Source: Bilabrum cf. latius (Eukaryota). From it: a DNA stretch of 64,000 bases. Numbering within the stretch: the stretch's first letter is position 1; each line of letters starts with the position of its first letter. The stretch lies in contig OZ237735.1 in NCBI GenBank assembly GCA_965178125.1, positions 2,294,001-2,358,000 of the forward strand, in the 5' to 3' direction. This document shows, piece by piece, positions 1-64,000 of this stretch. The notes beneath the pieces are model-generated. The model was not told the origin of the DNA. It did no database searches and saw nothing but the letters and a program-made list of their open reading frames with translations. A program made the translations under genes and the position numbers.

Positions 1-3000
1 TGCTGCGAGATGCGCTTCGTTCAAGTGCAGCATCCAACTCGCTGCTCATTGGCTGAAACTTGTGATTGGTATCACGTTCGTGACTCTTGCAAACCGCTGT
101 TCGAAAGCATTGCTCGTCTACAGTCAAAACTCGTTGATTTCGAGCTCCAGGCAACAGCTCGAATGGGTGATTCGCTGTAGATCGCACTGGTCGCACTGGC
201 TCGTTAACAGTCCGCGGCACTATGAACGAAAATAGTCGCAAGGGTAGAGACCTGGCACACTGATCAATGTCTCTTGTCAACAAGGACACAAGAACCGCGT
301 AGCCACGAGCAAGCTGCATGGAATGTAGCTCTGAATCGGCACGACCCTCCTTCATGGCAGAGGCAAGGACGCTTGCCAACTTTGAAAAAACGCGCCTAAC
401 TCCCGACACACCGGTGCGCTAACTATCAGCGAGTAGGTGCTTCTTGATTCCGACCCACACTCTATTCGCCCAGGAGGCAATCGACAGGGTCGTCGAGCCT
501 CTCATGATTGCACCGCTCGTAGAGACGAGTGGGTCGCCTTCCTCCCAAACAGCTGGGTCAACATTTGCAGCACCATCTGGCCCAGCGGGCGTATTGCTCC
601 AACCCTTCAAGATAGAGGAAGTCACAGCCACGTCGTCTTGCACAGCTGCAGTTGACAAAAGAAGCAACAGTGACTTGCAGTGCTCCATGGAGCTGGACGG
701 CTCCGCAGCAATACGGCGCGCAAGGCTGACACACAATTCAAGGAAGTCGTCGTGGCGTCCGGTGCTTTTCCGCAGAAGGCTAGAGACGATACTGACCATG
801 GAAGATAAAGCATCGCTATGCTGCTGTAGCGGATGCTTCGGAACCAGGAGCCTCTTAGCATATTTCCACAGCTCCTGCTGTCCATAGGCTTCAGTGTAAG
901 CAAAGGCGCCTGCCCTCAAAGATAGTAGCGAAGCTATTGATGGGGTTGCAACTGGCATGGACTGCCAAACTGCGCATGGCAGCCCGCACGAGTAGACCAC
1001 GGAGGTTTTCTTTTCTTCTGAGCAATCGTAATCGCACGATGGGCACCGCCCGAAGGATTTTGCACTGGACATACCGCACTCCCTGCAGACGTACTTCGTG
1101 TTGGTCTAGACTGCACCGTCAAGACGAGCCATGCTCTCAACTTTAATGCCCTCTCTAGCAGCGATGTAAGCCATAAGTGGGTTCAACTCTTGCTAAACTT
1201 TTGAATTGGTTGGCGAAGCCAAAAGGATCTCGCAAGCATCGCCCAACGCTTGCAATTCCAGCGAGACGACATCGTTCGGTAGCCGCGACATCGTTGAAGC
1301 GGCCTTCTCCATGCTTTCATGGGCAGTGAGGCAGGCGTGAAATTGTTTTGCGCACCTGATTAGTTCGGTCATCTCAGCAACGACTGACACACCAGACACC
1401 GACTCAGGCGCACTGGGAAGGCTGTCGAGATACATGTGAGTGCTGTTCCTGCAAGCGCCCTAGCTCCTCGGTGAGCATCCTGAGGAAGCTGAAATGACCG
1501 GACCGAGGTCAAACCCTGGCGTAAGTCGATCGCGGTACAGCTCATCATCCGAAATATCGGCCCCGGTTCTGAACGCTGCACAAGACCCAATTGGTGCAAA
1601 GCCACTACCTGGACCACCAACCTAAGTGGTAATTGCGGTGATTTCTGGTGGAGACCACATGCCCTCACCTATGATAGGCTGCGCACTGACGAAAGGTATG
1701 GAGGATCTGGGTAATTTCTCTTCGGCTCCGCTGGTCGTCACGCTTCGCACCTGCTACATGGATCCCACTGCGTGTCTGGCGCGATAGGCACCGTGCTGGG
1801 AGAGCCAAGCATCGACTTTAGCCATGGCCCGTACTGCCGGAGATGCAAACTATTGCTGCGATTTGTCAGCTCGCGGGGTGACTGGCCCCAAGCGTTCCAG
1901 GGCATCAGCCGAAGGAGGCAATCCATCCGAGAAGCAGTCGCTGCATGCGGACGCAATGGCATCCTCTACCAAGACGAATGGCTCCACGTCTACTTTCGAA
2001 TTCGTGATTCTCTCAAACCAATGTTCTCTCATAAGGATTCGTTGAAGCAAGACCTTTCGAAGCTATTGGGCAAAACGAACAGCCGTGTCAGCAAGAACTC
2101 TCCGCGAGTCGACCAGGCCACTAATGGGCGCAAGTGCAGCACCAGTGTATTGGGGTACACTCTGACAGAGCTCCACGCAACTATCGGACAGATCAGTGAG
2201 CTCGGTCAAGAGGAACTGGTAGTTAGGGTACTCTGTCCTGCAAGTTGCTGATGAGGTAGGCTCGCAACCACGGACAATGCACACCTCAATTCCAGTTCGG
2301 TCCAGCGAGCGCAGCATTGGTAAGTTTGGATTTGCTCGTTGACGCGGTTCAAGGCATTGGACGGCGGTTCCACTGCAAATGGCAGATATCACGTCCCTTT
2401 GTGCGCAAGTGGTTCCATCCATGGCCTGCCGCACCAACATCTGGTGCCTCTGAGCATTTCCCTCGCGGTTCAATGCGTACATCTCCCCAGCTGTACCGAC
2501 CGAAGGACATGAATGGCTCCGCGCGATGGGTGTCCAGGTTCCACACGGATCTGAGGATCGGAAAATCCAGTCATCCATTGATGTCACTCGGTGCCTGACA
2601 TCAAGAAAGCCTTCTGAACTCAACTGCGACTCACCTACCTCTTCGCGCTCAACTTGCAATGAGGGAATTTTAATTGGACTGGACGAGCTACTACTATCGC
2701 TGAAACGACCTAGACGTGGCAGCGAGGAGTCAGCATGCTGTACCTGTACAATTACTGCCCGGCCGCTGAAAGCAAACTGGCTTGCGTCTGAGTCCGTCGC
2801 TACAGTAATCTTGCTGAGCGCGTGCTGTGATAAGACAAACGACTTGTGCATAGTCGTGACGCTACCGCCAGGTATCTAAGCCTCAACTGAGACAGACTCG
2901 AGGTAGTCTAGAAGGCCAACTGCACCAAGACTACTTTCTGAAGCAGCTTCCAAATATGCATGTTTCTGGTAGTCTCTCAAACTAGTGTTGAGCGGAAACA

Positions 3001-6000
3001 CAGCAGGATCGTTTCCAGCGGTGTATTCCCAAGCAAATTGATTGGATCCCCAACAACTGGCATTGCGCAAAGAGGCCGAAGTCAGGCCACCGTTCTGTAC
3101 ACAAGGTACACCAAGCGGACTGCCTGGGTACTAGGCCTGGAGGCGGCGTTCGTTGGTTTCATCAATCGCAGCAATGGTTGCGATGTGAGCGTCCAAGGAG
3201 TCGTTCATTGCCCACTTCAGTTCAGAGTAGCACCCAGTCTTGAGAATAGCGTCTACCTAACGCGCCAGCATCTCTGCATTGAAACCGTCGTAAGGCGTTG
3301 AACCAGCGCCGGCGCGCTCGTGCTCAAATGGTGAGACATTACTGGCAATAGCCGACTGAAGTCGTTCTGCAGACTCAGTCCTTCGCCTGCACACTGAGAG
3401 AACATGTGCCAAAAAGTCACCAACGGTTTTTTTCAATGAAGTGGCCACCTCCGGCACGCTTGGCATGTCTGGTGATCTGAACAGGTACCTAGTTTCCCAG
3501 GACTCCTGCTCAGGAGAAAGTGCCGGCAAGGCACCATCGGCTCCATCGCTTTGCTACGAAGTACTGCTGGAAATGGCACTCTACGCGGTATTCGACAGCT
3601 TGAACCCGTTGAGGATCGCACCGGCAGCATCGAGCAATCTGCGTAGCCCCATCGCAACCATGCGAACTCGTAGTCTGGAGATATGCCCGCCGTCAAAGCT
3701 AGCGGTTGGAGGCTGTGTGATGAAAGATATGCGCAAAATGTCAAGCGTGAACTTGTCATCCTGGCAACCTTTGATGCCATTGATGAGGTTAGCAATGGCC
3801 GGGGCTATGCTCCTGGAGAGAAGCCAGCTTGCAACTGCGAATGGCGATGTCTCATTCTGTGCAATTGAGCTCGATAGAACCATGGCATCAGATAGTCGCC
3901 GAGCAATCTGCAATGCTGAATTGACGTTCTCAAGAAATGTGCAAAGCAGCTGCATCGTGTTTGGGGACCTTGGCCAACGCCTGCAGCCACCGTCGACCTG
4001 CCAGACGTCGGGGTCAACCTTGGGGACCTGCACGTCTGCATCAGCCACCATTGCTTGCCGAATTCGCCGCAAACGCTTTTCCAAGGCCTGCCTTGCATGC
4101 TTGCGGTACATATCACGAGAAGTCATGCTAGACTGGGAGTTTGACGTTCGGTCACTCTTGCTAGTAGTGAAGGCTAGCCTGGCGGCTCGAGCTCGCTGCC
4201 GCTGCGACCACGGTGCCTCGCTCAGCAGGCTCAATCGACGCGTACTGCTCCACTCATCAGCAGACACAACGGAATCATCCTCATCATCGCATTCATCGGA
4301 TTCGCTGTACTCTGTGTGCGGATTGCTGGTGAGTCGACGCCACATCTCTGGAACTGCTCTGTCCCTCTTGTCGCTCACATCGCCGTTGGCTTCATACATC
4401 GCCTTCCACATGCTGCTCCATCCCGAGTTCCTTGCGTCTGATTGAGACGTGTGCCAGTGCGACATCCACTGGGGAGGCATCCATCCTGCTAAACTACTGC
4501 GCGGGGCTGCTGCAACGCCTCTAATGCGATCGATAGCGCTTGGTACTGATGATTCGCCCCCTGCACTAGAAGATGCCATCATGGACCGCACCGCCCGCTC
4601 GCAAGTCGAATCGAACAGCGCTTCATCGTAAACATCCTCGTCAGTGCTGCTATCGTTGCGTTGGAAATCAATGTCAGCAATCTTGCGGCTAACGGGTAGA
4701 ATGTGTCCACGCATTCTGTAGCCTCCTTTGCTGCTATGCCTGGGAGCTTTACCAAAAAGCTTTGCATGCTGGCTCGAGTGGACCTAAGAACTGCTCAAAA
4801 CCTAAAAGCAATCCTCCGGTCGCAGCAAGCCTGTCCTAGCCTAGAGCGAGCACTGAAGCGGCCAGGCATCCCGATTGACTCCAGCCGCATCCATCCTGTT
4901 CTTTGTGCTCCAGCGCAACCTGTCCGAAGGGATTGCTCTCAATACTGCGTCTTCCGGCTTCCGCTCCACTGACTGCCTCCATATCTTCATCCACGGAGAT
5001 TGGCCAGAAGCTGTCGACCCGCCGTTTGAATACTACCACAGCACAAACTCAGCTGCTTCGTCCGGAACCTTAGCACTGGTGTCAAATCGCTCGGAAAGCT
5101 CTCTTTCGAGTTCTGAGGCGCAGTGAGCAACCTATCTCCCAAGCCCCTCAACAGCTACTTGGGCTGCCAAGCAAATCCCTGTCTCCGGTGCCATCCACGG
5201 GTCGGGAAGAGCAGAGGCATCCTCGGCTGGAGGCGAATTTATGATCTTCAAGACGTCCACCGTTGTGCAGGCATCATTCAAACGAAAAAGCTCTGTCGGT
5301 GGCATTGCACGAGATTCTTTGGAGATGTGCTGGAAGCTATCTTCTGCACTCGAGACCATCAGCTCGCCAGGACGGGGCCATCTGCGGTGCACTCGAATGA
5401 ACCAGGCCACCCTCTCGAAGCACATGGTCAGGTACTTCATCCGGAACTCTTCTGACAGTAACGAGTCGACACGCGTGATCTCATCATCGCTTACCCAGTT
5501 CGGGTCGTAATAGTACATGCGATCTTCCTTCTTCTTGTCTTTGTGCTTGGCAGCTTCCAACTTCCGCTCGATTTCAGCTTTCTCCCCACGCAAGCTTGCC
5601 ATGCCTTCCAGCTCGTCGATTCGTTGCGAGTACGCCTTAAAGACGGTGCGCTCAGGATCGCTGCCATCTACGCTAGACTTCAAGTCGTCGAACAGCTGAC
5701 TCAAATTGGCACTGGCCCTTTTAGCCTCAACAAGCGACTTGAAGTTGTTCACCTGATGCCGTCCAAGGCGCATGGGCAGGAGCCATCGAGCAATCTCGAG
5801 GCCATACATCGCACTCGAGACGTACGGAATGCCCAGTTCAGGTAGCACAATGTGGATATTACGGCTAGCGCAGGCCGCCATGGTGGCAGCACTGTCTGCT
5901 ACTGTCTGCAGCTTCTCAAGGAGTCCGGCATCGTCTGTAAAGCCTTGTGTGTCCAAGCCGGATCTCATGCCTGCACCGCCCATGATTGGCTCTGACGGTG

Positions 6001-7083
6001 AGTTCACAGCAGCTGCCTGTCTGCCAGCAAGCACTGCGATGCGGTGGCAGCGCCCTGCCATCTTTCCAAGAGATTCCATCATACGAATCCATGGAGACTG
6101 CTTGCCGTACCCGAAGGGGTTCCTATGGCCTTCATCTGAGGTAGCTTCTAGCTAGTTCAATAGAATTGAAGGAACCTCAGCTGCTGCCTCGCATGCGAGA
6201 GGCATGTAGAAGCTGTGCTGCGCGGTAGGTCTTGTCGACAGAGCAGAGTGCAGCGTCTCCAGGGTGAGAGGCTCGCGAGCACGAACAGAGTTCGTCTCGC
6301 CGGCACCTGCCTCGGCTTCGCTTAGCTACTCCAGATTGGGCTCGTATGGAAAAATGGACTCCTCTTGCCTAGTGAAAATGTCTTCAACAACCTCCCTCGA
6401 TACTCTCAATAGACGGGCTAGCTCAAAGAAGTTGCGAAAGCCAAAGTCGTCGTCGTAGACGGCATGGAATTCCATCTACGACCTCAGTGCAGCACAATGA
6501 TTTTGCAGCAGGCGCTTGTCAGCGCCAGGTACGTTCTGCTTCTTGTCAAAGCCGGGCATTGATTCGAGACTGCGAGCTGCGCTTTGGATGACTGCACGGG
6601 CACCCTTCGCGGAGGCGACACTCTTGCGAAAGGCAGACTTCATGCTGTCGGTTACATCTTCTTCAGATTTCCCCGGAAATCGATCTTCGAAGTGATCTAC
6701 GGGATCATAAGTCGACTCGCTCATTTCTAGAGTATTCTGCAGAAACTAGTGCAGGCCTGCGATCGCGACTGTGTCAACGCGCTGGTACAGCGGCTTGGGG
6801 ATCGCAAACCTCGACCTGTTGGGCTTGTCCGCCGCATCGACTATTGCGCGGAGCTCCTACAATCGAACACCAACCCTGCCTAGCACCTGTTCGTGCGCTA
6901 GTTTACGCTGCTCTAGGACGTGCGAATTGGCCATGGTTGCCACTTTTGAAGCGAGGCGGGCTGCTTTGAGACAGCGGGAAGCCGTCCTACGGGTGAACTC
7001 AAGGTGCATGTCGGGTGCGTTTGTGGGGAACTGCACGCGAAAGTCGTGTGTCGGAACCGTATAGTGCTCGCTGCTGGACGCGG

Positions 7084-7122
<39 letters not shown>

Positions 7123-8390
7123 CGGCGCCACTTGAGGATGCCTTAGAGCCAGCGGTGGCACTGCCCGACCTGCTGCCAGCACCTGAAGCGGCTGCCCCTT
7201 GATCCTCATCGTCCATTGGCGCTTGCACGGAGCTAGCTTTGCTGTCGCTTGAGGAACCGCTCCGGCTGGGTGCCCTGGACTCCTTGTCCACGCGCTGAAG
7301 CAGCGGGGTCGGCATGAGCCGAAGTGATCGCGGGAGCTCGTCTTCAGGCACTGGCAGCGTGCTCACACCAGTAAGTGCAGATGCAGCGGATCCCGATTTG
7401 CTTGGGCTTGGTTCCCCTGCGCCTAGGACGCCGTTGCCCCCACGGCTGTCAAAGTAGCTGTCGAGAACTGCAGCAGCCCCGGACACGAGCACGGACAGGA
7501 TTGACAGCCGCGTCTACCCGCAATCTGTGCGAGGAGGGGGGCGGGCTAGATCTGAACAGGCGCGCACGTCACCTTTCTCGTCGTCAGAGACCTGATCAGA
7601 TGACCGCATCGGGGTCGACGAGCCTGCGCCGCTTGCTGGGCCGATGGACCCGTCCGACCGAGCACTTGCGCACGGCTCGTCCTGATGCTCGCCGGCCTGC
7701 TCTGTACCCTCATCGAAGCTACTCTGCGATGCATAAACATAATCGTATCAAAATACGGCGACTGAGCTCGGATTTCTAAGAATTGCATTAATAGCAAGGC
7801 TGCAGACAGGTTTGAAGGTGGCTTCGCGCAAAATGTACGTAGCTCACGTTAGCAGCCACGTCTTGCGAACGCCCATCCACTTCTGACGAAGCCTGCTTGG
7901 ATTCATCATTACTCTGGGCAAAATATTGCAAGATTTCGTCCAAGTTGCCGTGGCGAACGACGGCCCGGAACAGTTGCTCCGGCTCCGCTATCACATAGAG
8001 ATCCTTCAAAATCTCAACGCCATCGCGGAGCTATGGGGAAACCAAGCGATACGACGTTGAAATCAACTCCGGGTCATGCTTGGACAGCCTGCCGACTGCG
8101 TCCAAGTACTAGTTGAGCAGGCCCCGCAGCTATTGCCTTGCCGCCGGCCCAGCCTGTGGCCGCACGGTCGGCTCAAACACGTCCCTTATGAACGAATCCA
8201 CTGCATTCCCAGCAGAAGATCCAGTATCACCAATTACTTTGCGAAGCAGCCCAAATATACGAGATAGGCTGGCTGAAGCTTGCCGTAAGCTGTTCACTGC
8301 CTCAATCGTCGATGTATCCAGTCGCCTCGCGGCAGCCAATGATGCCTCAAAATTGATGACAAGCATCTTCATGGGGTTCTTTGTATTCAT
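1..8390 (-). CDS. Very large hypothetical protein (>2750 aa, runs off the window end), one predicted intron 7724-7847, many in-frame TAG codons
   Basis: Minus-strand ORF fragments ending at 419, 1193, 1850, 2063, 2876, 3257, 3581, 5132, 6476 and 6857 share one frame and all end in TAG. Manual translation of most linkers, and of 418 down to 1, shows no TAA/TGA. The first exon (8390-7848) joins through GTGAGC...CATCGCAG in phase 0. No domain recognised; start codon tentative. Confidence 0.75.
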
Positions 8391-8565: not shown

Positions 8566-10501
8566 ATGCGCGTGGTCACTTTGCATGTCTCGCTTATTCT
8601 CGCCTGTTTGTGCGCCAATGCTTGCGGGAAGAAGCCAAACGTGAGCAAACCCTTGAGCAGACTTTGCATTGCGTGCATCGCCCCGGTTGAGCCGGTCCAC
8701 TCCTTTTGTTCCATTGATTCCTCGTAACGCAGTTTGTATTTATCGTTGCTGATGATTTGCGTCGTGAGTGCTGGCGCATGTATTGCATTATTACCGGTTA
8801 CTCAGTCTCAGTCGACCCTGACCGTATATTCGCACGTCTTGTTCACGATCCTACGCTGCAGCGGAGCTTAGCGGCCATTACGGGTACGGCAGTAGTGTGT
8901 AGACTCCTGCTTTTGAACGGATCATGGCCCGCGGAACAACTTTCATGCATGGCTACACGCAGATCCCGATTTGCTCGCCAAGCAGAACTTCCTTTCTGAC
9001 CGGCAAGCGACCCGATTCGAACAAGGTTTGGTACATTGGCCCGTACTTCCGGGATATCGCGACGTGGCCTGAAGGCAGTAACGCAATCACCTTGCCGCAG
9101 AAGCTCAGGCTGGAGGACTGGAACGTCACCGGGTTCGGTAAGATCTTCCACCCTGGCTCCAGCTCTGGCGGCCCTACAAAGTCCGTTGGGGGCGGCGACA
9201 TGCCCTACAGCTGGAGCGCTGATTGGTAGCAGCTGCCTCCCAACACCACGACTGGTTATTTTTGGTGCGACCAGTTCTACGGGGGCGAGGTACAGAGCCC
9301 AGCGAGCGTGTCGTGGCCGGCAGGCACTGGGTGCGTGCAGAGCCTCGAGTGCCGCGAGTGCCTCGCGAAGCACTTCTCCCTTGGGCTGCAGCCGGGACCG
9401 AGGTTCTCCGCAGCCTTCCCACCGTGTGACGAGTCATGCTTCCCCGACGGCCTGGTGGCAGACGAGGCCATCAGGCACATCCAGTGGAAGAAGCAGCACG
9501 GCCACGACGAGGGCTGGGCCCTCTTCGTCGGAATGAAGAGGCCGCACCTCACATGGATGGCACCAGAGAAATACGCAGATCTTTACAAGAACAGGTCCCT
9601 GCCGCAGCCGCTAAACCCGCGTCCCCCCGCCGGCGACTACCCCACGGTCTCGTTCTACCAGAACGGCGAGATGACAGGGTGCTCGGACCTGTAGGGGGAG
9701 ACTTACGAATGGACCAGCCCGGAGGGGGACGGCCCATTCACACTGATTGACGAAGACCAGTACCCGCGCCTGCGCAAGGCATACGTGGCAAGCATCGCAT
9801 ACATGCAGGCCCAGGTTGGCCGCGTCATTGATGCACTCGATGAGGCTGGATTCGACCCTTGGATCATCGCCACGGGAGACCACGGCTACGCACTCGGCGA
9901 GAATGGGGAGTTCTGCAAGCAGAACCTCTTCGAGACCGGCACGCGCGTCCCATACATCGTGGCCCCACCCCTCGGCAGCACAGGGCCAGACGGCACCCAG
10001 TGGAACCGCAACGTCACGAGCGACGCGCTCGTGGAGCAGCTGGATTTCTTCCCCACCGTGATGGAGGCGCTGGCTGTCCCCAATTACAATAGCGACAATC
10101 GTTCCATGCCTGGGCAGGGCGGAGAGGCGACCTACACGCTCGAAGGGGCCTCGGTTCTGCCTCTGCTGGCTGGCGAGGACAAGCCCGCGTACTTTGACTC
10201 GGCCTTCTCGTAGTTTCCCAGGGACAAGAAGTACATGGGGCTCTCCATCCGGACCTAGGACTGGCGGTTCACGGAGTGGTTTGAATGGGACTTCACCGCG
10301 GGCAAGCCCGTGTCGTGGGACTCGGTGGGCAAGGAGCTGTACGACCACTCTCGTGACACAGGGGCCTACGGCACCTTTGATCTAGAGAGGGAGACTTTGG
10401 CGGGCGATCCGAGGTATGCAGGGGTGGTGCAGCAGCTCCAGTAGCAGCTGCGGAATACGTGGGACACAGACAAGGCGCAGAGGATGCAGCGATTCACGTG
10501 A
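8566..10501 (+). CDS. Iduronate-2-sulfatase-like secreted sulfatase (~581 aa); exons 8566-8640, 8733-8763, 8862-10501
   Basis: Signal peptide MRVVTLHVSLILACLCANAC, then KKPN|FVFIVADDLR|PEL. Catalytic motif CSPSRTSFLTG, plus GKIFH, KRPH, GDHGYALGE, AFS*FPR, SIRT*DWRFTEW and ELYDH. In-frame TAG at 8900, 9227, 9692, 10211, 10256, 10442; ends TGA 10499-10501. Introns GTGAGC..CGCAG (92 nt) and GTGAGT..TGCAG (98 nt). Confidence 0.92.
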
Positions 10502-40253: not shown

Positions 40254-40257
40254 ATCC

Positions 40258-42756: not shown

Positions 42757-42793
<37 letters not shown>

Positions 42794-54029: not shown

Positions 54030-54139
54030 GCCCGATCCAAGACAGATATAGAAGTGGCACCACGAGCCGCGCCGCCGCCGGGGTCCAAAGCCCCGAGTGC
54101 AGTGCACTCGTCGTCTTCACATCCACTTTCGGGCAATCA

Positions 54140-56176
54140 ATGAAGGCCGCCAGCGAGAAACTTCCTAAAGAATTGTCAGGAACCATGCAGCTCAAGCCAC
54201 AACGTGCGGCATCACAAGCATCGCGAGAAATCAATGTCAAACTCGAAGCCGACGCGAGTGATAGCGCTCCGCCGGCCTTGCAAGTCGATGGCAGAGATGT
54301 TATACGGGTTATGCTGTAGTTTTTGCGAGAAAATTCCCTAAATGAGTCACTTCGCACTCTTCAAGACGAGACTGGGGTCCCTTTGGATGCGGTAGATTCG
54401 CTTGCAGACCTGCGCAGCCTGGTCCTTGCCGGACGATGGGACGCGGTCCTGACCCAGCTAAGTGAAATGTCGTTGCCCCCTGATGTAGTCATGCTCGCGT
54501 ATGAACAGGCTACCCGAGAGATGCTCGAGCTTCGGGAGGCAGACACGGCTCTGGCACTGTTGAAATCAGCCGTACCCCTGCGGCTCATGCGTGGCTTGCA
54601 ACCTGGCCGGTACGCAAGGCTAGAATCGCTTGTGCGCCGTGGTGCGTCCTCTATCCAAGAGCTGTACCCGGCTGGAGCCACCCGTGCGACTCGGAGAGAC
54701 GAAGTCGCGACGGCCATCGAGGAGCACGTGCGCGAAGTCCCGCGGGGACGCCTGCTCGCCGCGCTCGGCGACGCCCTCCGTTGGCGACGAAGGGCAGGGC
54801 TTCTCCCCGCTGGAATGGGATCCCGTCTCGACGTATTCAGTGGAACTGTCCCGCGGCGTCGCGACGCAGAGGAGCTGCCGGCCAGTCGCCGGGCCGGCGT
54901 GGTCCGCTTCGCCAAGGGGACGCGCGCCCTGGCGGCCTGCATGTCCCCGATTGGAGACGCGCTCGTGACCGGCAACTCGGACGGATTCGTGGAGGTCTAC
55001 GACCCGGAATCGGGATCTCTTCGCATGGATTTGGAGTACCAGGAGAGGGACGAGGTGATGGCCCACGAGAGCCCCGTGCTGTGCCTAGACGTCAGCGAGG
55101 ACGGGGAGCTCGTAGCCGCGGGAGACAAGAACGGGGACGTGCGCGTCTGGAGGATCGTCAGCGGCAAGTGCCTGCGCCGGTTCCCGAAGGTGCATCCCGG
55201 CGGTGTGACGAGTGTCGCGATCTCGCGCGACTCGTCCAGGGTGCTGGCAGGCGGCTTTTCCGGGGCCGTCAGGGTGCTGGGCATGCGATCCGGGAAGCAG
55301 GTCAGAGAGCTCCAGGGCCACACGGCGTTTGTCAATAGCGTGCAGTTTTCCGCTGACGGGTCGTTCTGCCTGACTGCGAGCAGCGACGGGACAGCCAGGA
55401 AATGGAACTCTGCCACTGGAGAGGCCGTCCAGGTGCTGCGGCCACCCTCTGCCAGCGCGACTGCGGAAATCGCGGTCGTGTCTGCGCTGTTTGTGCCCAG
55501 GCGGGGCGGCCTTGACGAAGGGGCGCCTGGAAGCGTTGCCGCGGCAAGTGGCAGCCAGGCGGCCGGAATGCCATCGTCATCCACGTCCGCCGCGTCGAAA
55601 TCTAATGCGGGCGGCAGCGTGCTGGTGTGTCCCCGCGGCCCGGCCGCGTTCGTGCTGGGCTCAGGCGGCGAGGTGAAGTCAACCCTGCGGCCTGGACCAC
55701 TTCTCAACGAGCAAAAAGGCAGCAGCGGTGCAGGAGGGGGGAGCAAGCGGTCGACGGCAGCTTCGTCCTCCTCGTCCTCATCTTCCTCGTCTGCCGCGCC
55801 ACCCACCCTTCGAGACGCCTCCGAAGCGGCGCGTGATGCCTCGCTACACCTGGCAGCGGCTGCGGTAGGCCCACAGGGAAGGCTTGCGTACCTGTTCGCA
55901 GATGATGGGGGCATGTACGTGCTGGACATAGCGAGTGGCAAGCAGCTGGCAGCGGTGCAAGCCGCGGGCGAGGGCGCGGAGCCTCTGGGCCTGTCGCACC
56001 ACCCGCACAGGAACCTAGTGGCTAGCTACGCGACGGAGAACAGGGTCAGGCTGTGGCAGCAGGACAAGAAGGCAGCCAAGGCGCGGGTCAAGTCCGGAGC
56101 AGTGGGAGTGGGTGCTGCCGCTTCTGGGGCGGGGCATAGTCACGGGGGGAGTGTGCCCAGCGTGCCGATGTCTTGA
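54140..56176 (+). CDS. SMU1: WD40-repeat spliceosomal protein SMU1 (LisH/CTLH + WD40; ~678 aa; alternative start 54185)
   Basis: DVIRVML*FLRENSL...TLQDETGV.L..VDS...GRWDAVL, YEQ...EMLELRE, VPRGRLLAALGDALRW, LVTGNSDGFVEVYD...G.LR.DL.YQ, GKCLRRF..H..GVTSV, GHTAFVN, HHPHRNLVASY. TAG at 54317 aligns with the conserved Gln of SMU1 LIMQYLKENSL; ends TGA. Confidence 0.95.
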
Positions 56177-56224
56177 GTAGATCCCATTAGTGAAATCGAG
56201 CAAAGCTGGTGTGTTCAATCTCCC

Positions 56225-58912
56225 TTAGTTTGGTCGCCGTGACTTCCAGTACCTTCGGCGTATTTCCTTCATAGTGTACCCCTTCCCGCCGTCACGCTTC
56301 AAGTGTTCAATCCACGCATTTTTCGCGCGTCTTCTTTGGCGTCTTGGAGCTGCCGGACCAGCCGGTGAGCCATGCCCGCCCATGTCCATAGGAGCGCCGC
56401 CGCCACCCCCGCCGCCACCACCCATCATCGCGCTCATCATCATCATCTGCTGCATTTGCTACATCTGCTGCATCTGCGCCGCCGCTGCCTGCTGCGCCTG
56501 CTCCTGGGCCCTCCGTGACTCTTCCCGGATTTCTCGAATGGTCTGCTCTTGGTCTGCTTTAATCTTCTCTACGGCCTCCTCTGCCTTGGTGACCTGCTGC
56601 CTGCACTCCTCCGCCTTCTGCTTCTCTTGCTCGAGCTCAGCCTCGGTGCGCTAACGCTGGGATGCGTTGTCCTCGGCACGCTGCAGCTGGCACAGTGCGG
56701 ACTGTGCCTTCGCATGGAGCTGCTCCACGTCGGCCTTCAGTCGGGCTTGCTCCACGGCGACCGGATCGCGAGCATCGGCGCCGCTTGAGGTCCAGGACTG
56801 TACGATCGCGACCAGATCGGAGCGTCGAGCCCCCACTCCGAACTGAGCCCGTGCCTCCTCGAGCGGTGCTCCGCAAGCCGCGGCTCCAAGCACTTCAGCA
56901 GGCCTCGCTTCTAGTGCCGAGCCCGACGAGAGGGTGGCACCAGCGCCCGACGAGGCCTGCGTGGCAGGCGCTCGCACCGGTGTCGGGTCTCCAGCGGCAC
57001 CGCCCGAGCCCTTGCCTCCCGACTCAGACGAAGACGATGGATCCCCTGCGCCAGCCACAGTCTCGCGAAGCACCGTTGCGAACCGCTCTGCAGCAGCACA
57101 TGCCTCGCCGCTGCCCTCCCTCCTGAACGCCTCCTCAATCCTTTGAACCGCCTCGCCTGCCCAGTCCGACTCGAGGTGCTGCGCAAAATCGTCCCTCAGG
57201 GCTTGCTCGAGCCGGCCACTCCCGCTCATTGCCTCGCGAATGCGCTCCCCGAGCCTGACTCGCGCCTGGGCGGCTTGCTCCGAGGTGCCCTCCGCACCTG
57301 CGATGGCGTCGTCATTGGGAACGCTGTCGCGCAGCCGAACGTAGGCATCGTTCTCTAGCGCGACTCTACGCGCATCAAGCAATGCCGCGAGCATGCTCTG
57401 CGAAAGGCTTTGCCTCGCCTCGGCTGCCTTGGCGCGTATGCGAGCGAGGAGGCTCTCACGCACCGCCTCACATGTCGAGTCGCACAGCTTGCGGGCTGCG
57501 TCCGGCAGCTCGCTGATGGACACGCAGGCCTCTTCGGCCGCAGCTCTGATTATCTCCGATTGCATCATGTCCCGGAGGATCGCCAACAGCCGATCAACTG
57601 CGGCTGGAGACTGCAAAGAAGCCACGAGTTCGGCCGTTGAGCTGCCCTCTTCGGCCTGGCACCCCTCCAGCACAGCGCTGTGAAGGAATTGCGCGTGTGA
57701 GACGGCAACACCGGTCGCGTGGGTCTGCAGCTGCTCCCGCAAGGAGGTCCCATTGATGATCCCGATATCTATCGAGGCGTTGGCTTGCTCTGCGAGCGTC
57801 TTGATCGCGGGGAGCACGCTGCTCGGGACGCACGGCAGACTCGGGTCACCCATGAGGTGCCCAGCGCCGGTCCTTGCAGACAGCTCCTTCCCAGCAATAT
57901 TCTCCAGCATCGTGTCGAGGGCTGTCCGGAGGTTTGTTTGCTGTTCCGGAGGCACCTGGCCGGACCGGGGATCCACGGACAAGGCGGGTACGTGCGCGAG
58001 CTCGCATCGCCTGAAGCAATCTTTCAAGCTTTTCCTCTGCTTGTTTCTTGCCTCGATGTCTCTCTTGGCAGCACGGGTTCCAGATTCAGGCTCCATGCCA
58101 AACACTGTCTCACATAGCTCTCGCTTGTCTGCATCAGTCACCAACAAGTTGCACATGAGCTGCGCTACGCACAGCGTGCCGCTCAAACCGCTCGTCGCCT
58201 GGCCTCGATGGGCCTGAGATCCGGCTGCTTCACCCTCCGCCTGCTCACTGGCGCTGTCCAGGATGATTTCGCTCGTTTCTACGATGTGTGCGACCATTTT
58301 GAGCGCGCTATCACGCGTGATTGCATCTCTCTAGGCGAACAAGAGGGCCCCGCGTGCGGTGAGCAGCAGCGCTGGCAGCACGGTGCGGGTGTCCTGGCTG
58401 GCAGCCTCAGCACCTGATCCTTCGCAATCGATGACCAGCACCGCAGATTCATGGGGCTGCCCGAATGCTCCTGCCGGCAGGTGGATGAAAACCCCGTCGG
58501 CGCCCTTCGTACACGGCTGGGGCTGGTCTGAGGTGACGAACAGGTCCGGGACACGCTTCCCGGAGATTTTGCAGTGTACAAACCTGACTTCGCCGCCGCC
58601 AATCATCTGTGGTTTTGGTGCGGGCGTTTCGAAGGCGTTCTGCACGATCCAGTCGACTGCGTAGTTCATCGTGGTGCTTTTGCCACCTCTCGCGGGTCCG
58701 TTGATCGCGATTGTCGTCAGGGGGGCACCCCCTGGCAGATCTCGTAGTATTCGCTAGATGCCTTCCTCATCAGGAATGCCTATCTGCGGTGCACGATCGG
58801 CAGGTGTTGCGGCTGTCACGCGCCACAGCGGCACGACGCCGGAGAGTTTGATCGCCTGTCTGCAGCCGGAGCCACTGGCAGGACCTTCCGATCCTCCTCT
58901 TCTTGATGCCAT
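56225..58912 (-). CDS. Guanylate-binding-protein/atlastin-like P-loop GTPase with a helical/coiled-coil C-terminus (~895 aa)
   Basis: TIAINGPARGGKSTTMN (G1), FVTSDQPQPCTKG (G2), VLVIDCEGSG (G3). Fragments joined through TAG at 58754, 58331, 56651, 56459; ends TAA at 56225. Confidence 0.82.
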
Positions 58913-59364
58913 CGTGTGTTTCTGCGTGAATGGTGCAGCGTGAGCGAACAGTATGGCGTGTCTCAAGAACGCGCGAACAGCAACACCAACGCTTCCAGAA
59001 CGAATGAGTGCCAATTTTAGACTTGGATTAGCCATACCGCTGTCGCAGTCCAACATCGAGGATGAAAATGTGCACGCAAATAGATACCAAATGCCCCAAC
59101 TCACTAACTTTGGCAAATTTCTTGCAGTGAGTGTACCAGGTGTAACTTGTAGTAATAGTCGCGGGAACGAACGAACGATCTTAATTTTCATGAAATTGCC
59201 ACCTCGCGCGCGGCCCTAGTCGCGGGAACGAACGGAACCATCCATGGATCGGTGCCGCCGCGCGTTCATTTGCGGAACCCACCTAACCACGAGATGAGCC
59301 GCAGGGCTGCCAGTCAATCCTTTAGGTATCAAGCAACGTTAAATACCAGCGCTGGCGTATAGCT

Positions 59365-60609
59365 ATGGAAGGCGATGAATTCAACAACGCGGGAGAGGTG
59401 ATCGATCTCGTCAGCCACGACTCAAGCGAGAGCGACAGCGATGTCGAGGCTCCCGACAAGCACAACAACACAAGGTTTGCTGCATCAAATTCAGCGACTA
59501 CCAGCGTCTAGTGGGGCTCTCCAGACGCATGTCTGAATGGCAGGGCCCGCGGTCCAGCTAGCGATCGAGAAGAAGCTGCCAGTGGGGCCGTCGATCAGAC
59601 TCAAGCTAGTCCTGTGTCCACCGTGCCATCAGTACAATCCAGCAGCAGCACAGTATCACAGCAGGTGGTACAATCAGCAATGCAGTTAAGCTTAGGAGCA
59701 GCTGCAGGTGATACTAGCCATTCCTCGCTGGGGCAGAAGCGGGGAAGGCGGGCAGAGGTTCGCCATCTAGATAATTTCAAGAGGGGAGCGAGGGCAGGGA
59801 AGAAGCGGCGGAAGGAGGCACATACAAACGCGATAGAATTCGAATGCGAGGTATGCGGTAAGGTGCTGGGCTCAATGAAAGGCTTGCGGCAGCATGTGTC
59901 GGTGGTGCACCTGGGCGAGCGCAAGCACGAGTGCATGGTGTGCGGCAAGTCATTCGGTGTGGCAGGCTCACTCAGGAGGCACATGTCCATTGTGCATCTG
60001 GGCGAGCGCAAGCACGAGTGCATGGTGTGCGGCAAGTCATTCGGGCAAGCAGGCGATCTCAGGACGCACATGTCCACTGTGCATCTGGGCGAGCGCAAGC
60101 ACGAGTGCAGTGTGTGCGGCAAGTCATTCGGTGTGGCAGGCTCACTCAGGACGCACATGTCCACTGTGCATCTGGGCGAGCGCAAGCACGAGTGCAGTGT
60201 GTGCGGCAAGTCATTCGGGCAGGCAGGCTCACTCAGGAGGCACATGTCCACTGTGCATCTGGGCGAGCGCAAGCACGAGTGCATGGAGTGCGGCAAGTCA
60301 TTCGGTGTGGCAGGCTCACTCAGGAGGCACATGTCCACTGTGCATCTGGGCGAGCGCAAGCACGAGTGCAGTGTGTGCGGCAAGTCATTCGGTGTGGCAG
60401 GCTCACTCAGGACGCACATGTCCATTGTGCATCTGGGCGAGCGCAAGCACGAGTGCATGGTGTGCGGCAAGTCATTCGGGCAGGCAGGCTCACTCAGGAC
60501 GCACATGTCCATTGTGCATCTGGGCGAGCGCAAGCACGAGTGCATGGAGTGCGGCAAGTCATTCAATGTGGCAGGCTCACTCAGGACCCACATGAAACGA
60601 TGCAATTGA
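59365..60609 (+). CDS. C2H2 zinc-finger array protein, third (inverted, more diverged) paralog (9 fingers, ~414 aa)
   Basis: MEGDEFNNAGEVIDLVSHDSSESDSDVE N-terminus is homologous to copies 1 and 2; TAG at 59509; 84-bp finger repeats ~59839-60606; ends TGA. Confidence 0.9.
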
Positions 60610-61037
60610 TTCGTATGGATATACTAGAAAGCAGACATATTCCAGCCACGCCCCTTGGCTCAACTTCACATTCAATGCAATCACCGCTGTCCTTCTTTAT
60701 TTACTGGGGTTTACCCACGCTGGTGGCCCGACCTCGTCACCCACTGGCACCACCACCTTGCCACTGGCCTCGCCGCCCAGTGTATCCTTGTCAGCTCATG
60801 CCGTGGCCTCACCATGTTATCATTCAGCTAAGAATCATCCCAATAAGTGAAAGCTATGTCTCGGCAATTACTTGAATTCAAGAATTGCGACCTGCCAGGA
60901 GAGCTGCGACCACAGCTCGCACAACAATGCAACTGATGAAGCGATGAAGATTCATTCTGTTTAGTCATACCAGTCTATCCCAAAGTCTCCACAACATTGG
61001 CAGTGAACACTATAAAGCTAGTTCTGCTATCTATACC

Positions 61038-63848
61038 ATGTCATCGGCAGCAGCTGGCAGCGGCGCCGGCCCAGCAGCCCGAATGAATCAAGCTTTGCGC
61101 CATGCCCAAGCTGTCTTCTCAGCGTCCAAAGACGACGATGCCCGAGGTGCTTCGGCTGGAGTTCTAAATACAAAGGCGCTTGTCTTAAATGCCTTGCTTC
61201 GCACAGCTGAAGTAGTGTCTGCATCAGGATCCCGCTGCTAGGACGACATAGATTCGGCTTTTCGAAGCGTAGAGGGTGTTAGCAGAGCGGCAGAGATTGT
61301 CCAAGCACGACAGATGCGCTTAGGTTGGAGTGTAGAAGCAAATGCTTCCAGGGCTGGGCTGGTCAATGCGCACGGGCGAGTTTTGCCCGGTACTACGAAC
61401 GGAGCCGGTACTGAGTAGACACAACGGATCCTCACGATTGAAAATCAAAACACGGTTTCCAGCTCTCTCCGTAAGACTGGCACTTCTGCGCATGTGTGTG
61501 CATTGGCGGCGGCTTCGACCTCTCTGTCTGCTGGCGCTACCACGAGCAGCGGCCGGTACTGCCCTGCAGATCGGCAATCGCAGCAGCATGTCTAGGAAGC
61601 AGCTAGCTTCGTCGAGGAAGTACTTGCCATGGAAGCAGATGGCGATGCATCCAACGGCTCCGGCCTGTCATTTTCGGTCGTGCCAAAGCAGCACCGCTCT
61701 GCGGCTGCTGCCGCCCATGAGGCAGTCGGTGCTACTGGCTCGAAGACACCGAGCCAAAGCTCCGGCTCCAGAGCCGCAGAGGTGCCCCATGTTGACGACG
61801 AGAAACCAGTGACGTCTTCCGATCGCGTTTCTTCATCCCTACCGGTGCCTGTGCAGGCCGCGGCAGAGCCCATCGCGCGCCCGAATCGCCCCCACTAGGC
61901 CTAGCAGCAGCAGCAGAAGCGCCAAGTCCCGAGGCTCAAAATCGACCAGACCCAGGTATAGGGAAGTGACCCTAGCTCAAGCCAGAAAATCCCAGCATCT
62001 GCTAGTGCTATAGGCTCTACGGGTGTCCCCCAGGCGCTGGACTCTCCTAGGCAGCAACCCAAGACGCCGAAGGCGAGAGGGCCGAAGGAGTCAAAGCAGG
62101 CCACGCAGCCGGGATCATCCGGAGCGAAAAATCTTCAGCCCAGGCGATCCCCGAAGCAGCCCCCCCTGGACTCCGGGTCGCTGCCCTCGATGGCTGGCGG
62201 GCCCGGCGCCAGCCCCCCTTCCTCCCGCCCGACAGGCAGCACCCACTCGAAGCAGGTGGCCCGCGGGGAAGCCCCCTCTCGGAGGTCGCCGCGCACTAGC
62301 GGCAGCGGAACCACAGCGCGCGGCACCGACCAGAGCCCCGGTTTGGACTCCCCGCGGCAGCCCGGCAAGCCCCGCCGCGCTATCGGCTCCGGATCCAAGG
62401 CGAGTCTGGCTGCCATGGCTGGACAAGCCCTCAGCGGCGAGGAGGCCGCACCGGCGGCAAAATCCGTGCTCAAGGCACCTGCACCAGCACCAGCACCTGC
62501 ACCAGCACCAGCACCAGCACCTGCACCTGCACCTGCACCTGCACCTGCACCTGCACCTGCACCTGCACCTGCACCAGCAACAAGCATGTTTAGTCGCATG
62601 TTTGGCTCATCGCCGGCCCCAGCCCCAGCCCCAGCCCCAGCCCCAGCCCCAGCCCCAGCCCCAGCCCCAGCCCCAGCTTCAGCTTCAGCTTCAGCTGCAC
62701 GCCCAAGACCCAGACCCCAACCAAGGCCTCGCCCGGCGGCAAGCGCACGACCGCGGCCCCGACCCCGTCCCGGGCCAGCCGCAGGTCCTCGTCCCGGCCC
62801 TGCCAGGCCTCGCCCAGGTGCGGGCGGGCCCAGACCAGGCAGGGCCGCGGCGAGGCCGAGACCATCCCCTGCGATGGGAGGCGCTGCCGGCGGTGCCCCC
62901 GGTGGTCTGCTCGCCGAGATCCGTGGAGGTGCCAGGCTCAAGAAGGCCAAGACTGTGGTCAAGGGGAACAAGCTGCCCGGAGAAGGGGGTGCCTCGGGGG
63001 GAAGCAGCAGCGGGGGTGGTGGGGGGGGGCCGCCGGCGGGCGGCATGATGGCCCAGATCCTGGCCGCCCGCCAGAAGATGGCTGGTGGGGGCACCGGGTC
63101 GAGCAAGAGCAGCAAGCCCAAGCGCAAGTCCAAGGCAGGCTCTGGCGTTCTCGGAAGCAGCTCACACACCGGCAGCAGCAGTAGTAGCAGTATTAGCCGC
63201 GCTTCCAAGAAGTCCTCCGGCAAAGCCAGCAAGTCCAAAGGCACGGGCACAGGCAGGGGTTCCAAAGCGGGCGTGAGCGGGTCAAACCCCAAGAAGAGCC
63301 CCAAAAAAGGACCCAAAGCAGGCCCTAGGCAGCCCGTCTCCGTCGCATCGCTGGGAGCAGGTGCCCCCAGGCCGCAGCCCAGGCCAGCACCAGCACCGGC
63401 TGCGGCTGCTAGGGCACAGCCCCGTCCTTAGCCCCAGCCTAGGCCGCAAGCAAGGCCCCGGCCGCAGCCCAGACCCCAAGCAGGAGAGGGCCGCCCGGGG
63501 AGGCCGCGCCCAGGCAGGCCAGGGCCTGGAGCAGGGGCGGGTCCTGGCAGGCCAGGGCCAGGGAGGCCACGTCCGACGGGCGGTCCGTTCGGCGGTGGTG
63601 GGGGTGCCGGGGGTGCCCCCGGTGGTCTGCTCGCCGAGATCCGTGGAGGTGCCCGGCTTAAGAAGGCCAAGACCGTGGTCAAGGGGAACAAGCTGCCCGG
63701 GGCAGGGGGTGCTTCGGGGGGAAGCAGCAGCGGGGGTGGTGGGGGGGGGCCACCGGCGGGCGGCATGATGGCCCAGATCCTGGCCGCCCGCCAAAAGATG
63801 GCTGGTGGGGGCAAGAAGAAGAAGAAGAAAAAGAAAGGCGGCAAGTGA
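61038..63848 (+). CDS. Proline-rich protein with two WH2 (G-actin-binding) motifs and a poly-Lys C-terminus (~936 aa)
   Basis: Single frame interrupted only by TAG (61239, ~61416, ~61593, 61896, 61902, ~61959, 63429); (PA)n and (PR)n tracts; GGLLAEIRGGARLKKAKT twice; ends KKKKKKKKGGK-TGA. Confidence 0.8.
62476..62675. repeat. 6-bp coding microsatellites (GCACC[T/A])n and (GCCCCA)n encoding (AP)n
   Basis: Directly visible hexamer runs at ~62476-62580 and ~62617-62675. Confidence 0.9.
62891..63812. repeat. ~200-bp internal direct repeat (62891-63092 and 63611-63812) carrying the WH2 module
   Basis: Near-identical sequence at offset 720 encoding GAPGGLLAEIRGGARLKKAKTVVKGNKLPG...GGMMAQILAARQKMAGGG. 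Confidence 0.9.
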
Positions 63849-64000
63849 ACGTTTGGGATCCCGTGTTGCGTTGCAGTGTGCATCTCGAGGCCTTGTTTGT
63901 ACTCATCACCGAGCCTCGCGCTGAGCAGCTGCAGTGGTCGCAACAGCCGAGCGTTGCTGTAAACAATTTGCTGCAGTGTGTAACACAGAAGCATTTCGTA

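What the first reader, a model, noticed from the sequence alone, without database searches (positions are those of the whole stretch)
1..64000. Non-standard nuclear genetic code: UAG is a sense codon (Gln) while UAA and UGA remain stops
Seen: 18 of the 19 genes contain in-frame TAG, and up to 9.5 kb of one frame is broken only by TAG, never by TAA/TGA. TAG occupies conserved Gln sites: SMU1 VML*FLREN at 54317 (remembered human LIMQYLKEN) and sulfatase AFS*FPR at 10211 (remembered IDS AYSQYPR). It also lies inside Gln runs: CAG CAG CAG TAG at 37013-37024, TAG GCC TAG CAG CAG CAG CAG at 61896-61916, MQQM*QMQQMMMM at 56459, QQLQ*QL at 10442. Established: UAA and UAG nearly always share a meaning in nuclear codes. 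Uncoupled UAG=Gln (the NCBI table 15 pattern) is known from very few eukaryotes, such as the fornicate Iotanema and some ciliates. Inference: this GC-rich, Ala/Gly-rich, non-ciliate-looking genome may be an independent, undescribed origin.
Basis: partly seen in the sequence, partly recalled or inferred. Interest (0 to 1): 0.96.

Follow-up and report, generated by a model that had tools for sequence, protein, structure and literature searches.

The report
UAG read as glutamine, eukaryote nucleus
This GC-rich eukaryotic nuclear DNA uses the stop codon UAG as a glutamine codon while still stopping at UGA and UAA, a rare code variant seen before only in one gut flagellate and a few ciliates.

Summary
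With TAG read through, the longest frames are 3254, 2792, 2582 and 2021 codons. The longest is 1195 under the standard code, and 1195 again with TAA read through. In 15 gene-sized frames (17,791 internal codons) there are 105 in-frame TAG and no TAA or TGA, although TAA and TGA are common out of frame. Of 19 complete frame ends, 17 are TGA and 2 are TAA.

TAG stands where relatives have Gln. At 12 TAG sites covered by relatives of 65-98% identity, 9 are Q. Gln beats the next residue by about 13 log10 units. Human SMU1 has Q at 54317. 97 of 135 sulfatases have Q at 10211. Two paralogous sites are TAG versus CAG.

Spliced contigs from three runs in two studies carry the same letters at 40 of 54 TAG sites in 1-20000. 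This excludes sequencing error and RNA editing.

Not testable here: tRNA-Gln(CUA), eRF1 and the organism's lineage, because no genome is held. The code variant itself is known (NCBI table 15 pattern). A GC-rich, UGA-terminating, non-ciliate-looking carrier appeared in none of my seven literature searches.

The parts
2..7747 (-). Giant gene, 2582-codon frame that runs off the window. 24 in-frame TAG. A 5' intron at 7724-7847 is spliced out in an RNA contig.
   Evidence: TAG sites; joint 7723>7848, CT..AC, run X5; intron GTGAGC..TCGCAG
8566..10501 (+). Iduronate-2-sulfatase-like gene. Exons 8566-8640, 8733-8763 and 8862-10501, 581 aa, ends in TGA. Six in-frame TAG at 8900, 9227, 9692, 10211, 10256 and 10442.
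   Evidence: Pfam Sulfatase E 1.1e-25. Spliced joints in X5, X6 and X7. The spliced CDS restores a signal-peptide-like N-terminus and FVFIVADDLRPEL. Q in 97 of 135 homologues at 10211.
10624..12043 (-). Exosome subunit Rrp42-like gene. Intron 11447-11537, ends in TGA. Three in-frame TAG at 11801, 11717 and 11029.
   Evidence: PDB RRP42 E 5e-24; joint 11446>11538 in X5 and X7; the 70% relative P0215 has Q at both exon-1 sites
12031..13398 (+). Frame of 455 codons with no family match, 4 in-frame TAG, ends in TGA TGA.
13526..23290 (-). Giant gene, 3254-codon frame with a weak kinase-like region, 27 in-frame TAG, ends in TGA.
   Evidence: Four ORF fragments of a close relative show Q, Q, Q, E, Q at five TAG sites. 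The single 7974-nt X5 contig covers 12143-20000 with 0 differing letters.
23254..31632 (-). Giant Ala/Gly/Ser-rich gene, 2792 codons, 10 in-frame TAG, ends in TAA.
   Evidence: sequence after the TAA scores as non-coding
32546..38611 (+). EF-hand protein gene, 2021 codons, 6 in-frame TAG including CAG CAG CAG TAG at 37013-37024. Ends in TGA.
38898..40253 (+). EcKL/APH-like kinase gene. Its only TAG (38904) lies before the first Met, so the CDS has none. Ends in TGA.
41760..43922 (+). PH-domain protein gene, 5 in-frame TAG, the last 21 codons before the TGA stop.
43866..52237 (.). Tandem segmental duplication (43866-48114 and 48141-52237). It gives paralogous codon pairs: TAG 46820 with CAG 50942, TAG 47738 with CAG 51864, TAG 47057 with TAG 51182.
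   Evidence: 3920 of 4059 aligned bases identical
51708..54116 (-). COPI_assoc plus EF-hand membrane protein gene, 2 in-frame TAG, ends in TGA.
54137..56176 (+). SMU1 (spliceosomal WD40 protein) gene. One in-frame TAG at 54317, in the LisH motif. Ends in TGA.
   Evidence: Human SMU1 E 5e-105 with Q at the site. Q in 4 of 4 homologues that cover the column, including a 94% relative.
56225..59338 (-). Frame of 1037 codons, 5 in-frame TAG including MQQMqQMQQMMMM at 56459. Ends in TAA.
59287..60609 (+). C2H2 zinc-finger array gene, 2 TAG in the frame (1 after the first Met), ends in TGA.
60948..63848 (+). WH2-motif, Pro/Ala-rich protein gene, 7 in-frame TAG including TAG GCC TAG CAG CAG CAG CAG at 61896-61916. 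Ends in TGA.

Best explanation
The organism's nuclear code reads UAG as glutamine and keeps UGA (the main terminator) and UAA as stops. This is the pattern of NCBI table 15.

Shown: UAG sits inside expressed, spliced, conserved coding sequences at about 6 per 1000 codons, and it corresponds to Gln in relatives and paralogues.

Inferred, not shown: decoding needs a cognate tRNA-Gln with anticodon CUA, which pairs with UAG but not UAA. It also needs an eRF1 that no longer recognises UAG well. TAG then behaves as a third Gln codon (13% of Gln codons here) that exchanges with CAG by C/T transitions.
For: (1) Frames. Maxima are 3254, 2792, 2582 and 2021 codons with TAG as sense, 1195 under the standard code and 1195 with TAA as sense. 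There are 105 in-frame TAG but 0 TAA and 0 TGA in 17,791 codons, while out of frame there are 89 TAA and 538 TGA in 35,552 positions.

(2) Identity of the residue. At the 12 TAG sites covered by relatives of 65-98% identity the residues are Q 9, E 1, A 1, K 1. Standard Gln codons in the same alignments are kept as Q in 76 of 97. The log10 likelihood is -6.8 for Gln, -20.1 for Glu and -21.0 for Lys (underlying). Human SMU1 has Q at 54317. Q stands in 97 of 135 sulfatases at 10211.

(3) Paralogues. Where the two copies differ cleanly at an in-frame TAG, the partner is CAG in 2 of 2 sites.

(4) Expression. Contigs of runs X5, X6 and X7 (two studies) skip 91-124 nt with GT..AG or CT..AC ends at four places where the DNA run X1 is continuous, so they are RNA-derived. 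They show no differing letter. Their listed pieces cover 40 of the 54 in-frame TAG sites in 1-20000, and 17 sites are covered in two or more runs. The spliced sulfatase mRNA encodes a complete 581-aa enzyme only if six TAG are read.

(5) Stops. 17 of 19 complete frames end in TGA and 2 in TAA. Reading TAA as well lengthens only three frames, by 40-163 codons. The two stretches that follow the terminal TAA score -0.11 and -0.06 per codon, against +0.15 to +0.33 for coding sequence.

(6) The sulfatase stays conserved with a 65% relative beyond its last TAG, which lies 19 codons before the stop.
Against: No tRNA gene lies in the window, and no genome is held. The tRNA-Gln(CUA) and eRF1 steps are therefore untested.

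Five of the six sulfatase TAG sites lie in variable columns with no Gln majority.

Both exon-1 TAG sites of Rrp42 align to E in human RRP42. In three distant homologues they align to E/D/E and E/E/E. Only the 70% relative (both sites) and one archaeal chain (first site) have Q. One of five giant-gene sites aligns to E.

UAA as a stop rests on only 2 gene ends plus the absence of in-frame TAA.

Frames were defined from TAA/TGA to TAA/TGA, so a gene that truly ends at UAG would not be seen as such.

The RNA nature of X5-X7 is inferred from the joints. The tool labelled them 'RNA?', and X5 'probably DNA'.

There is no peptide evidence.
Confidence: 0.88

Rival explanations
1. UAG is ambiguous. It is read as Gln inside genes but also ends some genes, depending on context, as in Condylostoma, karyorelicts or UAA in Blastocrithidia.
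For: My frames were delimited by TAA and TGA, so a UAG terminator could hide as a short non-coding-like tail. Four frames have their last TAG only 19-78 codons before the stop. Such codes are described in passages of PMC11687900 and in abstracts listed.
Against: All 19 complete frames reach a TGA or TAA. In the sulfatase, similarity to a 65% relative continues past the last TAG to the C-terminus. In most genes, known domains (WD40, zinc fingers) lie after the last TAG.
Confidence: 0.06
2. Both UAG and UAA are Gln (NCBI table 6 pattern), and UAA is simply too rare in this GC-rich genome to show up.
For: TAA is the rarest stop triplet here, at 2.5 per 1000 out of frame. Both TAA-terminated frames run on for 148 and 161 codons before the next TGA.
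Against: With CAA:CAG at 178:499, 105 TAG would predict roughly 37 in-frame TAA. None breaks the giant frames. With TAA as sense the maxima change only from 3254 to 3294, 2792 to 2954 and 1037 to 1200. The stretches after the two terminal TAA score as non-coding, and one of them is antisense to SMU1.
Confidence: 0.03
3. UAG encodes another residue, such as Glu as in peritrichs, Leu as in the rhizarian exLh, or Ser as in Scotinosphaera.
For: The Rrp42 sites align to E in human and distant homologues. One giant-gene site aligns to E. At sulfatase 10256 the commonest residues are D and E.
Against: Likelihood over the 12 close-relative sites: Gln -6.8, Glu -20.1, Lys -21.0. Leu and Ser are not among the eight best-scoring residues, so both score below -24.2. 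The paralogue partners are CAG. Q dominates the two well-conserved columns.
Confidence: 0.02
4. Artefact or non-translation: sequencing or assembly errors, C-to-U RNA differences, pseudogenes, or programmed readthrough at a few sites.
For: None found. It is listed because a single assembly could carry systematic errors.
Against: No differing letters in four runs from three studies, including spliced contigs, over 1-20000. The 105 sites are spread over nearly all genes with intact frames of up to 3254 codons. TAG is conserved in both copies of a duplication.
Confidence: 0.01

Closest known systems
Iotanema spirale (fornicate, Metamonada): UAG = Gln, UAA and UGA stop (Panek et al. 2017, PMC5304391; passages read)
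   Same: The same reassignment of UAG alone to Gln in a non-ciliate nucleus. The predicted mechanism is also the same: tRNA-Gln(CUA) plus an altered eRF1.
   Different: The paper says UAA is the dominant stop in Iotanema. Here 17 of 19 ends are UGA and GC is 61%. Iotanema's eRF1 has a T32G change in the GTS motif, and eRF1 could not be examined here. Whether the organisms are related is unknown.
Ciliates with UAG = Gln only: Hartmannula sinica, Trochilia petrani, Protocruzia tuzeti (McGowan et al. 2024, PMC11687900; passages read)
   Same: The same code table (NCBI 15). The same kind of evidence: internal UAG at conserved Gln columns, 58-70% in their data and 75% of close-relative sites here.
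   Different: Those genomes terminate almost only at UAA, in 93.5-100% of C-terminal alignments. This window is GC-rich, has genes up to 9.8 kb, and lies on a DNA contig of at least 26 kb in an assembly with contigs up to 212 kb. From my own knowledge, that does not look like a ciliate macronucleus.
UAR = Gln codes (NCBI table 6): many ciliates, hexamitin diplomonads, oxymonads, some ulvophyte green algae, Amoeboaphelidium (listed in PMC5304391)
   Same: A stop codon is captured by Gln through a one-base anticodon change from tRNA-Gln(CUG).
   Different: UAA is not a sense codon here.
Other UAG-only reassignments: rhizarian exLh and some phyllopharyngeans (Leu), Scotinosphaera (Ser) (PMC11687900 passage)
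   Same: UAG and UAA are uncoupled.
   Different: The residue here is Gln. Leu and Ser are not among the eight best-scoring residues, all below log10L -24.2 against -6.8 for Gln.
Code 15 in crAss-like and Lak phages (TAG = Gln; abstracts listed)
   Same: The same codon and the same residue.
   Different: Those are bacterial viruses. This window has spliceosomal introns and nuclear genes such as SMU1 and Rrp42.

Membership tests
NCBI table 15 pattern (UAG = Gln; UAA, UGA stop) | In-frame UAG inside conserved, expressed coding sequences | tested here: met
   105 in-frame TAG in 15 frames. 40 of the 54 sites in 1-20000 lie on listed pieces of spliced contigs with no differing letter.
NCBI table 15 pattern (UAG = Gln; UAA, UGA stop) | UAG columns correspond to Gln | tested here: met
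   9 of 12 close-relative sites are Q, against 76 of 97 for standard Gln codons. Gln is favoured by about 13 log10 units. Q at SMU1 54317 in human. 97 of 135 Q at sulfatase 10211. Partners are CAG in 2 of 2 clean paralogue differences. Against: the Rrp42 sites are E in distant homologues.
NCBI table 15 pattern (UAG = Gln; UAA, UGA stop) | UGA is a stop | tested here: met
   0 in-frame TGA in 17,791 codons against 15.1 per 1000 out of frame. 17 of 19 frames end in TGA. The SMU1 and sulfatase C-termini match relatives.
NCBI table 15 pattern (UAG = Gln; UAA, UGA stop) | UAA is a stop, not a sense codon | tested here: met
   No in-frame TAA. TAA as sense adds only 40-163 codons to three frames. 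The stretches after the two terminal TAA score as non-coding. Only 2 gene ends use TAA, so support is thin.
NCBI table 15 pattern (UAG = Gln; UAA, UGA stop) | UAG is not used as a terminator | tested here: inconclusive
   Frames were delimited by TAA and TGA, so this is partly circular. Only the sulfatase shows conservation beyond a late TAG.
NCBI table 15 pattern (UAG = Gln; UAA, UGA stop) | A tRNA-Gln with anticodon CUA | not testable with these tools
   0 tRNA genes in the window, no Rfam match, no whole genome held.
NCBI table 15 pattern (UAG = Gln; UAA, UGA stop) | eRF1 N-domain altered at the GTS, NIKS or YxCxxxF motifs | not testable with these tools
NCBI table 6 pattern (UAA and UAG = Gln) | In-frame UAA at Gln positions | tested here: not met
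Ambiguous stop/sense codes (Condylostoma or karyorelict type) | The reassigned codon also terminates genes near their 3' ends | tested here: inconclusive
   No frame needs UAG to end, but the test is weak with 19 genes.
UAG = Leu, Ser or Glu variants | UAG columns correspond to Leu, Ser or Glu | tested here: not met
   log10L is -20.1 for Glu. Leu and Ser are outside the best eight, so below -24.2, against -6.8 for Gln.

The most novel reading that the evidence does not exclude
This is an independent origin of the UAG-to-Gln reassignment in a GC-rich eukaryote that is neither a ciliate nor a fornicate. Uncultured relatives at about 65-98% protein identity, whose ORFs are likewise fragmented, would share it. 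It would be the first case in which UAG was lost as a stop in a genome where UGA, not UAA, is the main terminator. That does not fit the usual picture of stop-codon capture under AT pressure.
Probability: 0.5. Interest if true: 0.8.

Novelty: new member of a known kind. Interest (0 to 1): 0.72.

Why it matters
Nuclear codes that give UAG and UAA different meanings are very rare. The papers I read name one fornicate, one rhizarian, one green alga and a handful of ciliates.

A further carrier that is GC-rich and terminates at UGA would be another independent experiment of nature on how eRF1 can be made to ignore UAG while still reading UAA and UGA. It would also test whether such changes need AT-biased genomes, in which UAG is already rare.

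In practice, any annotation of this genome, or of its environmental relatives, under the standard code breaks almost every gene into fragments. The database ORFs of the close relative show this: four fragments of one giant gene. Gene calling for this lineage must use table 15.

Tried and rejected
- Whole-genome route: no genome is held for the window. That ruled out a tRNA-Gln(CUA) scan, eRF1 inspection, 18S placement and genome-wide Codetta-style inference.
- tRNA and Rfam scans of the window found nothing.
- The metagenome scan with SMU1 returned only three distant WD40 loci at 31-32% identity, not the close relatives. DNA of the relatives was therefore never seen. That they share the code is inferred only from their fragmented ORFs.
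- The look-up of sequencing runs listed no holder on record as RNA. I inferred the RNA nature of X5-X7 from spliced joints after laying them.
- A MAFFT alignment of 151 sulfatases timed out. I replaced it with pairwise BLASTP columns.
- Names of the best sulfatase and SMU1 homologues gave no usable taxonomic signal. Only a diplonemid transcriptome protein and a sponge protein carried names.
I dropped the step.
- The PDB alignment to human iduronate sulfatase does not cover the 10211 site.
- Seven literature searches and one follow-up reading found no GC-rich non-ciliate with UAG = Gln. Supplements were closed, so lists of codes in supplementary tables may hold cases I could not see.
- A weak Pfam match to Ntox37 in the giant ORF (E 0.0057, below cut-off) was judged noise.

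Full report
**What the window is.** The window has 61% G+C. It holds about 19-20 genes on both strands. Many are very long and rich in Ala, Gly and Ser.

Recognisable products:
- an iduronate-sulfatase-like enzyme
- the spliceosomal WD40 protein SMU1
- an exosome Rrp42-like subunit
- an EcKL/APH-like kinase
- EF-hand, PH and WH2 proteins
- three C2H2 zinc-finger array genes

No tRNA and no Rfam family lie in it.

**Checking the observation.**
- Under the standard code the longest stop-to-stop frame is 1195 codons.
- With TAG read through, the longest frames are 3254, 2792, 2582 and 2021 codons.
- With TAA read through instead, nothing changes (1195).
- With TGA read through, the maximum is 1292.

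One measure does not single out TAG. The summed length of ORFs of 300 aa or more rises more for TGA (46,700) than for TAG (31,931), because TGA is the commonest stop triplet in GC-rich DNA.

In 15 gene-sized frames (17,791 internal codons) there are 105 in-frame TAG (5.9 per 1000) and no TAA or TGA. The two other frames of the same stretches hold 89 TAA, 283 TAG and 538 TGA in 35,552 positions. TAG is thus about as frequent in frame as out of frame, and the other two are excluded.

14 of the 15 frames have a TAG after their first Met. The EcKL-like gene has its only TAG upstream of it. The Rrp42 gene adds three more.

**Which residue.**

*Conserved columns.*
- The TAG at 54317 aligns to Q in human SMU1 (PDB 6q8f_A, 5o9z_L).
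- It also aligns to Q in 4 of 4 database homologues that cover the column, one of them 94% identical.
- The TAG at 10211 aligns to Q in 97 of 135 sulfatase homologues.
- The other five sulfatase sites lie in variable or gapped columns without a majority residue. Pooled, Q is still the commonest residue (16%, against 22% for the gene's standard Gln codons).

*Close relatives.* Public ORF collections hold fragments from organisms 65-98% identical in protein. The 12 TAG sites they cover read as follows:

| Gene | TAG site(s) | Residue in relative |
|---|---|---|
| SMU1 | 54317 | Q |
| Sulfatase | 9227, 10211, 10256, 10442 | Q, Q, A, K |
| Giant gene 13526-23290 | five sites | Q, Q, Q, E, Q |
| Rrp42 | two exon-1 sites | Q, Q |

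That is 9 of 12 Q. In the same alignments the window's standard Gln codons are matched by Q in 76 of 97. With substitution frequencies taken from those alignments, the log10 likelihood is -6.8 for Gln, -20.1 for Glu and -21.0 for Lys.

*Paralogues.* A 4.2-kb tandem duplication (3920 of 4059 aligned bases identical) gives two clean differences at in-frame TAG. Both partners are CAG (46820/50942 and 47738/51864). It also gives one in-frame TAG kept in both copies (47057/51182).

*Against.* Both exon-1 TAG sites of Rrp42 align to E in human RRP42. In three distant homologues they align to E/D/E and E/E/E. Only the 70% relative (both sites) and a Sulfolobus chain (first site) have Q. I read this as lineage-specific E-to-Q replacement at variable positions, but it is the main observation that does not point to Gln.

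**Not an artefact, not editing.** I laid four public runs on 1-20000.
- Run X1 covers it with two long contigs and no joints.
- Runs X5, X6 and X7 come from two other studies. Their contigs skip 124, 92, 98 and 91 nt at 7723>7848, 8640>8733, 8763>8862 and 11446>11538. The ends are GT..AG, or CT..AC for minus-strand genes.
- The depth of these contigs differs up to 20-fold between neighbouring genes.

I therefore take X5-X7 to be transcript assemblies. The tool only guessed 'RNA?', and 'probably DNA' for X5.

No run shows a differing letter. The listed pieces of X5-X7 cover 40 of the 54 in-frame TAG sites in 1-20000 (X5 39, X6 13, X7 14; 17 sites in two or more runs). 64 further pieces were not listed.

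The spliced sulfatase message starts at an ATG at 8566 and passes a 31-nt mini-exon. It encodes a signal-peptide-like start, the canonical FVFIVADDLRPEL and CSPSR motifs, and 581 residues. That holds only if its six TAG are translated.

**The stops.** 17 of 19 complete frames end in TGA and 2 in TAA. If TAA were also Gln, the CAA:CAG ratio of 178:499 would predict some 37 in-frame TAA for 105 TAG. There are none.

Reading TAA as sense lengthens only three frames, by 40-163 codons. The stretches after the two terminal TAA score -0.11 and -0.06 per codon in a codon-usage model. Coding frames score +0.15 to +0.33 and wrong frames -0.18 to -0.48. One of the two stretches is antisense to SMU1.

Whether UAG ever terminates cannot be settled with 19 genes whose frames I defined by TAA and TGA. 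The one direct datum is that the sulfatase stays similar to a 65% relative beyond its last TAG, 19 codons before the stop.

**Mechanism.**

*Shown:* UAG is a translated Gln-equivalent codon in expressed nuclear genes. It makes up 105 of 782 Gln-type codons (13%). Its share falls with the GC3 of the gene (Spearman -0.57, p 0.03, n = 15).

*Inferred from the published logic for such codes* (PMC5304391, passages): only an anticodon CUA reads UAG while ignoring UAA. So a tRNA-Gln(CUA), one mutation away from tRNA-Gln(CUG), is expected. An eRF1 with weakened recognition of the third-position G is also expected. Neither could be examined.

**Comparison with what is known.** Passages of McGowan et al. 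2024 (PMC11687900) and Panek et al. 2017 (PMC5304391) list the known cases:
- UAG-only to Gln: Iotanema spirale, Protocruzia tuzeti, Hartmannula sinica, Trochilia petrani
- UAG to Leu: a rhizarian and some phyllopharyngeans
- UAG to Ser: Scotinosphaera

Within Iotanema's own clade the change is confined to that lineage (PMC9161772, passages).

In Iotanema and the two phyllopharyngean ciliates (Hartmannula, Trochilia), UAA is the main terminator. Here UGA is, in a 61% GC genome with genes up to 9.8 kb and 91-124-nt GT-AG introns.

Seven text searches (with follow-up) found no description of such an organism. Supplements were closed, and subscription journals are not covered.

The lineage could not be placed. 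The window has no rRNA or strong marker, and the few named homologues were uninformative.

**Verdict.** The code variant is known, so this is a new member of a known kind. Whether it is an independent, undescribed origin stays open, at about even odds. Interest is 0.72.

Noticed in passing
43866-48114 and 48141-52237: Tandem segmental duplication of about 4.2 kb (3920 of 4059 aligned bases identical). It carries a C2H2 zinc-finger array gene and a calmodulin-like EF-hand gene. Copy A also holds a truncated copy (47582-48439, minus strand) of the 3' end of the COPI_assoc/EF-hand gene 51708-54116.
   Followed up: partly
45908-47473 (-), 50204-51613 (-), 59287-60609 (+): Three genes with long arrays of near-identical 28-residue C2H2 fingers (HLGERKHEC linker). 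The arrays are about 88-92% identical to each other and internally repetitive.
   Followed up: no
8733-8763: A 31-nt mini-exon in the sulfatase gene lies between introns of 92 and 98 nt (GTGAGC..ACGCAG and GTGAGT..CTGCAG). Both joints around it were seen in X6 and X7; X5 showed only the 8763>8862 joint.
   Followed up: yes
12143-20000: One 7974-nt X5 contig runs through the convergent genes 12031-13398 (+) and 13526-23290 (-). Their 3' ends lie only about 130 nt apart, so the transcripts probably overlap or the assembler merged them.
   Followed up: no
40428-41495 (-): An Arg/Ser/Asp-rich frame holds a 15-residue unit repeated four times in tandem. The same repeat shows in the other frames. 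It has one in-frame TAG and ends in TGA.
   Followed up: no
11717 and 11801 (Rrp42 exon 1): Both TAG sites are Q in a 70% relative but E in human RRP42 and in distant homologues. One is Q in an archaeal chain. This suggests E-to-Q replacement in this lineage.
   Followed up: partly
relatives P0205-P0208 (database ORFs, no DNA seen): Four ORF fragments 84-98% identical to parts of the giant gene 13526-23290 all come from contigs of the same length (17,453 nt). One starts just after the position of a window TAG. The close relative's gene seems broken by in-frame stops in the same way.
   Followed up: partly
33102-36052, 54361-56139 and other minus- or plus-strand partners of long genes: Long ORFs antisense to the GC-rich genes (up to 766 codons) are by-products of codon bias, not genes. 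They inflate ORF lists.
   Followed up: no
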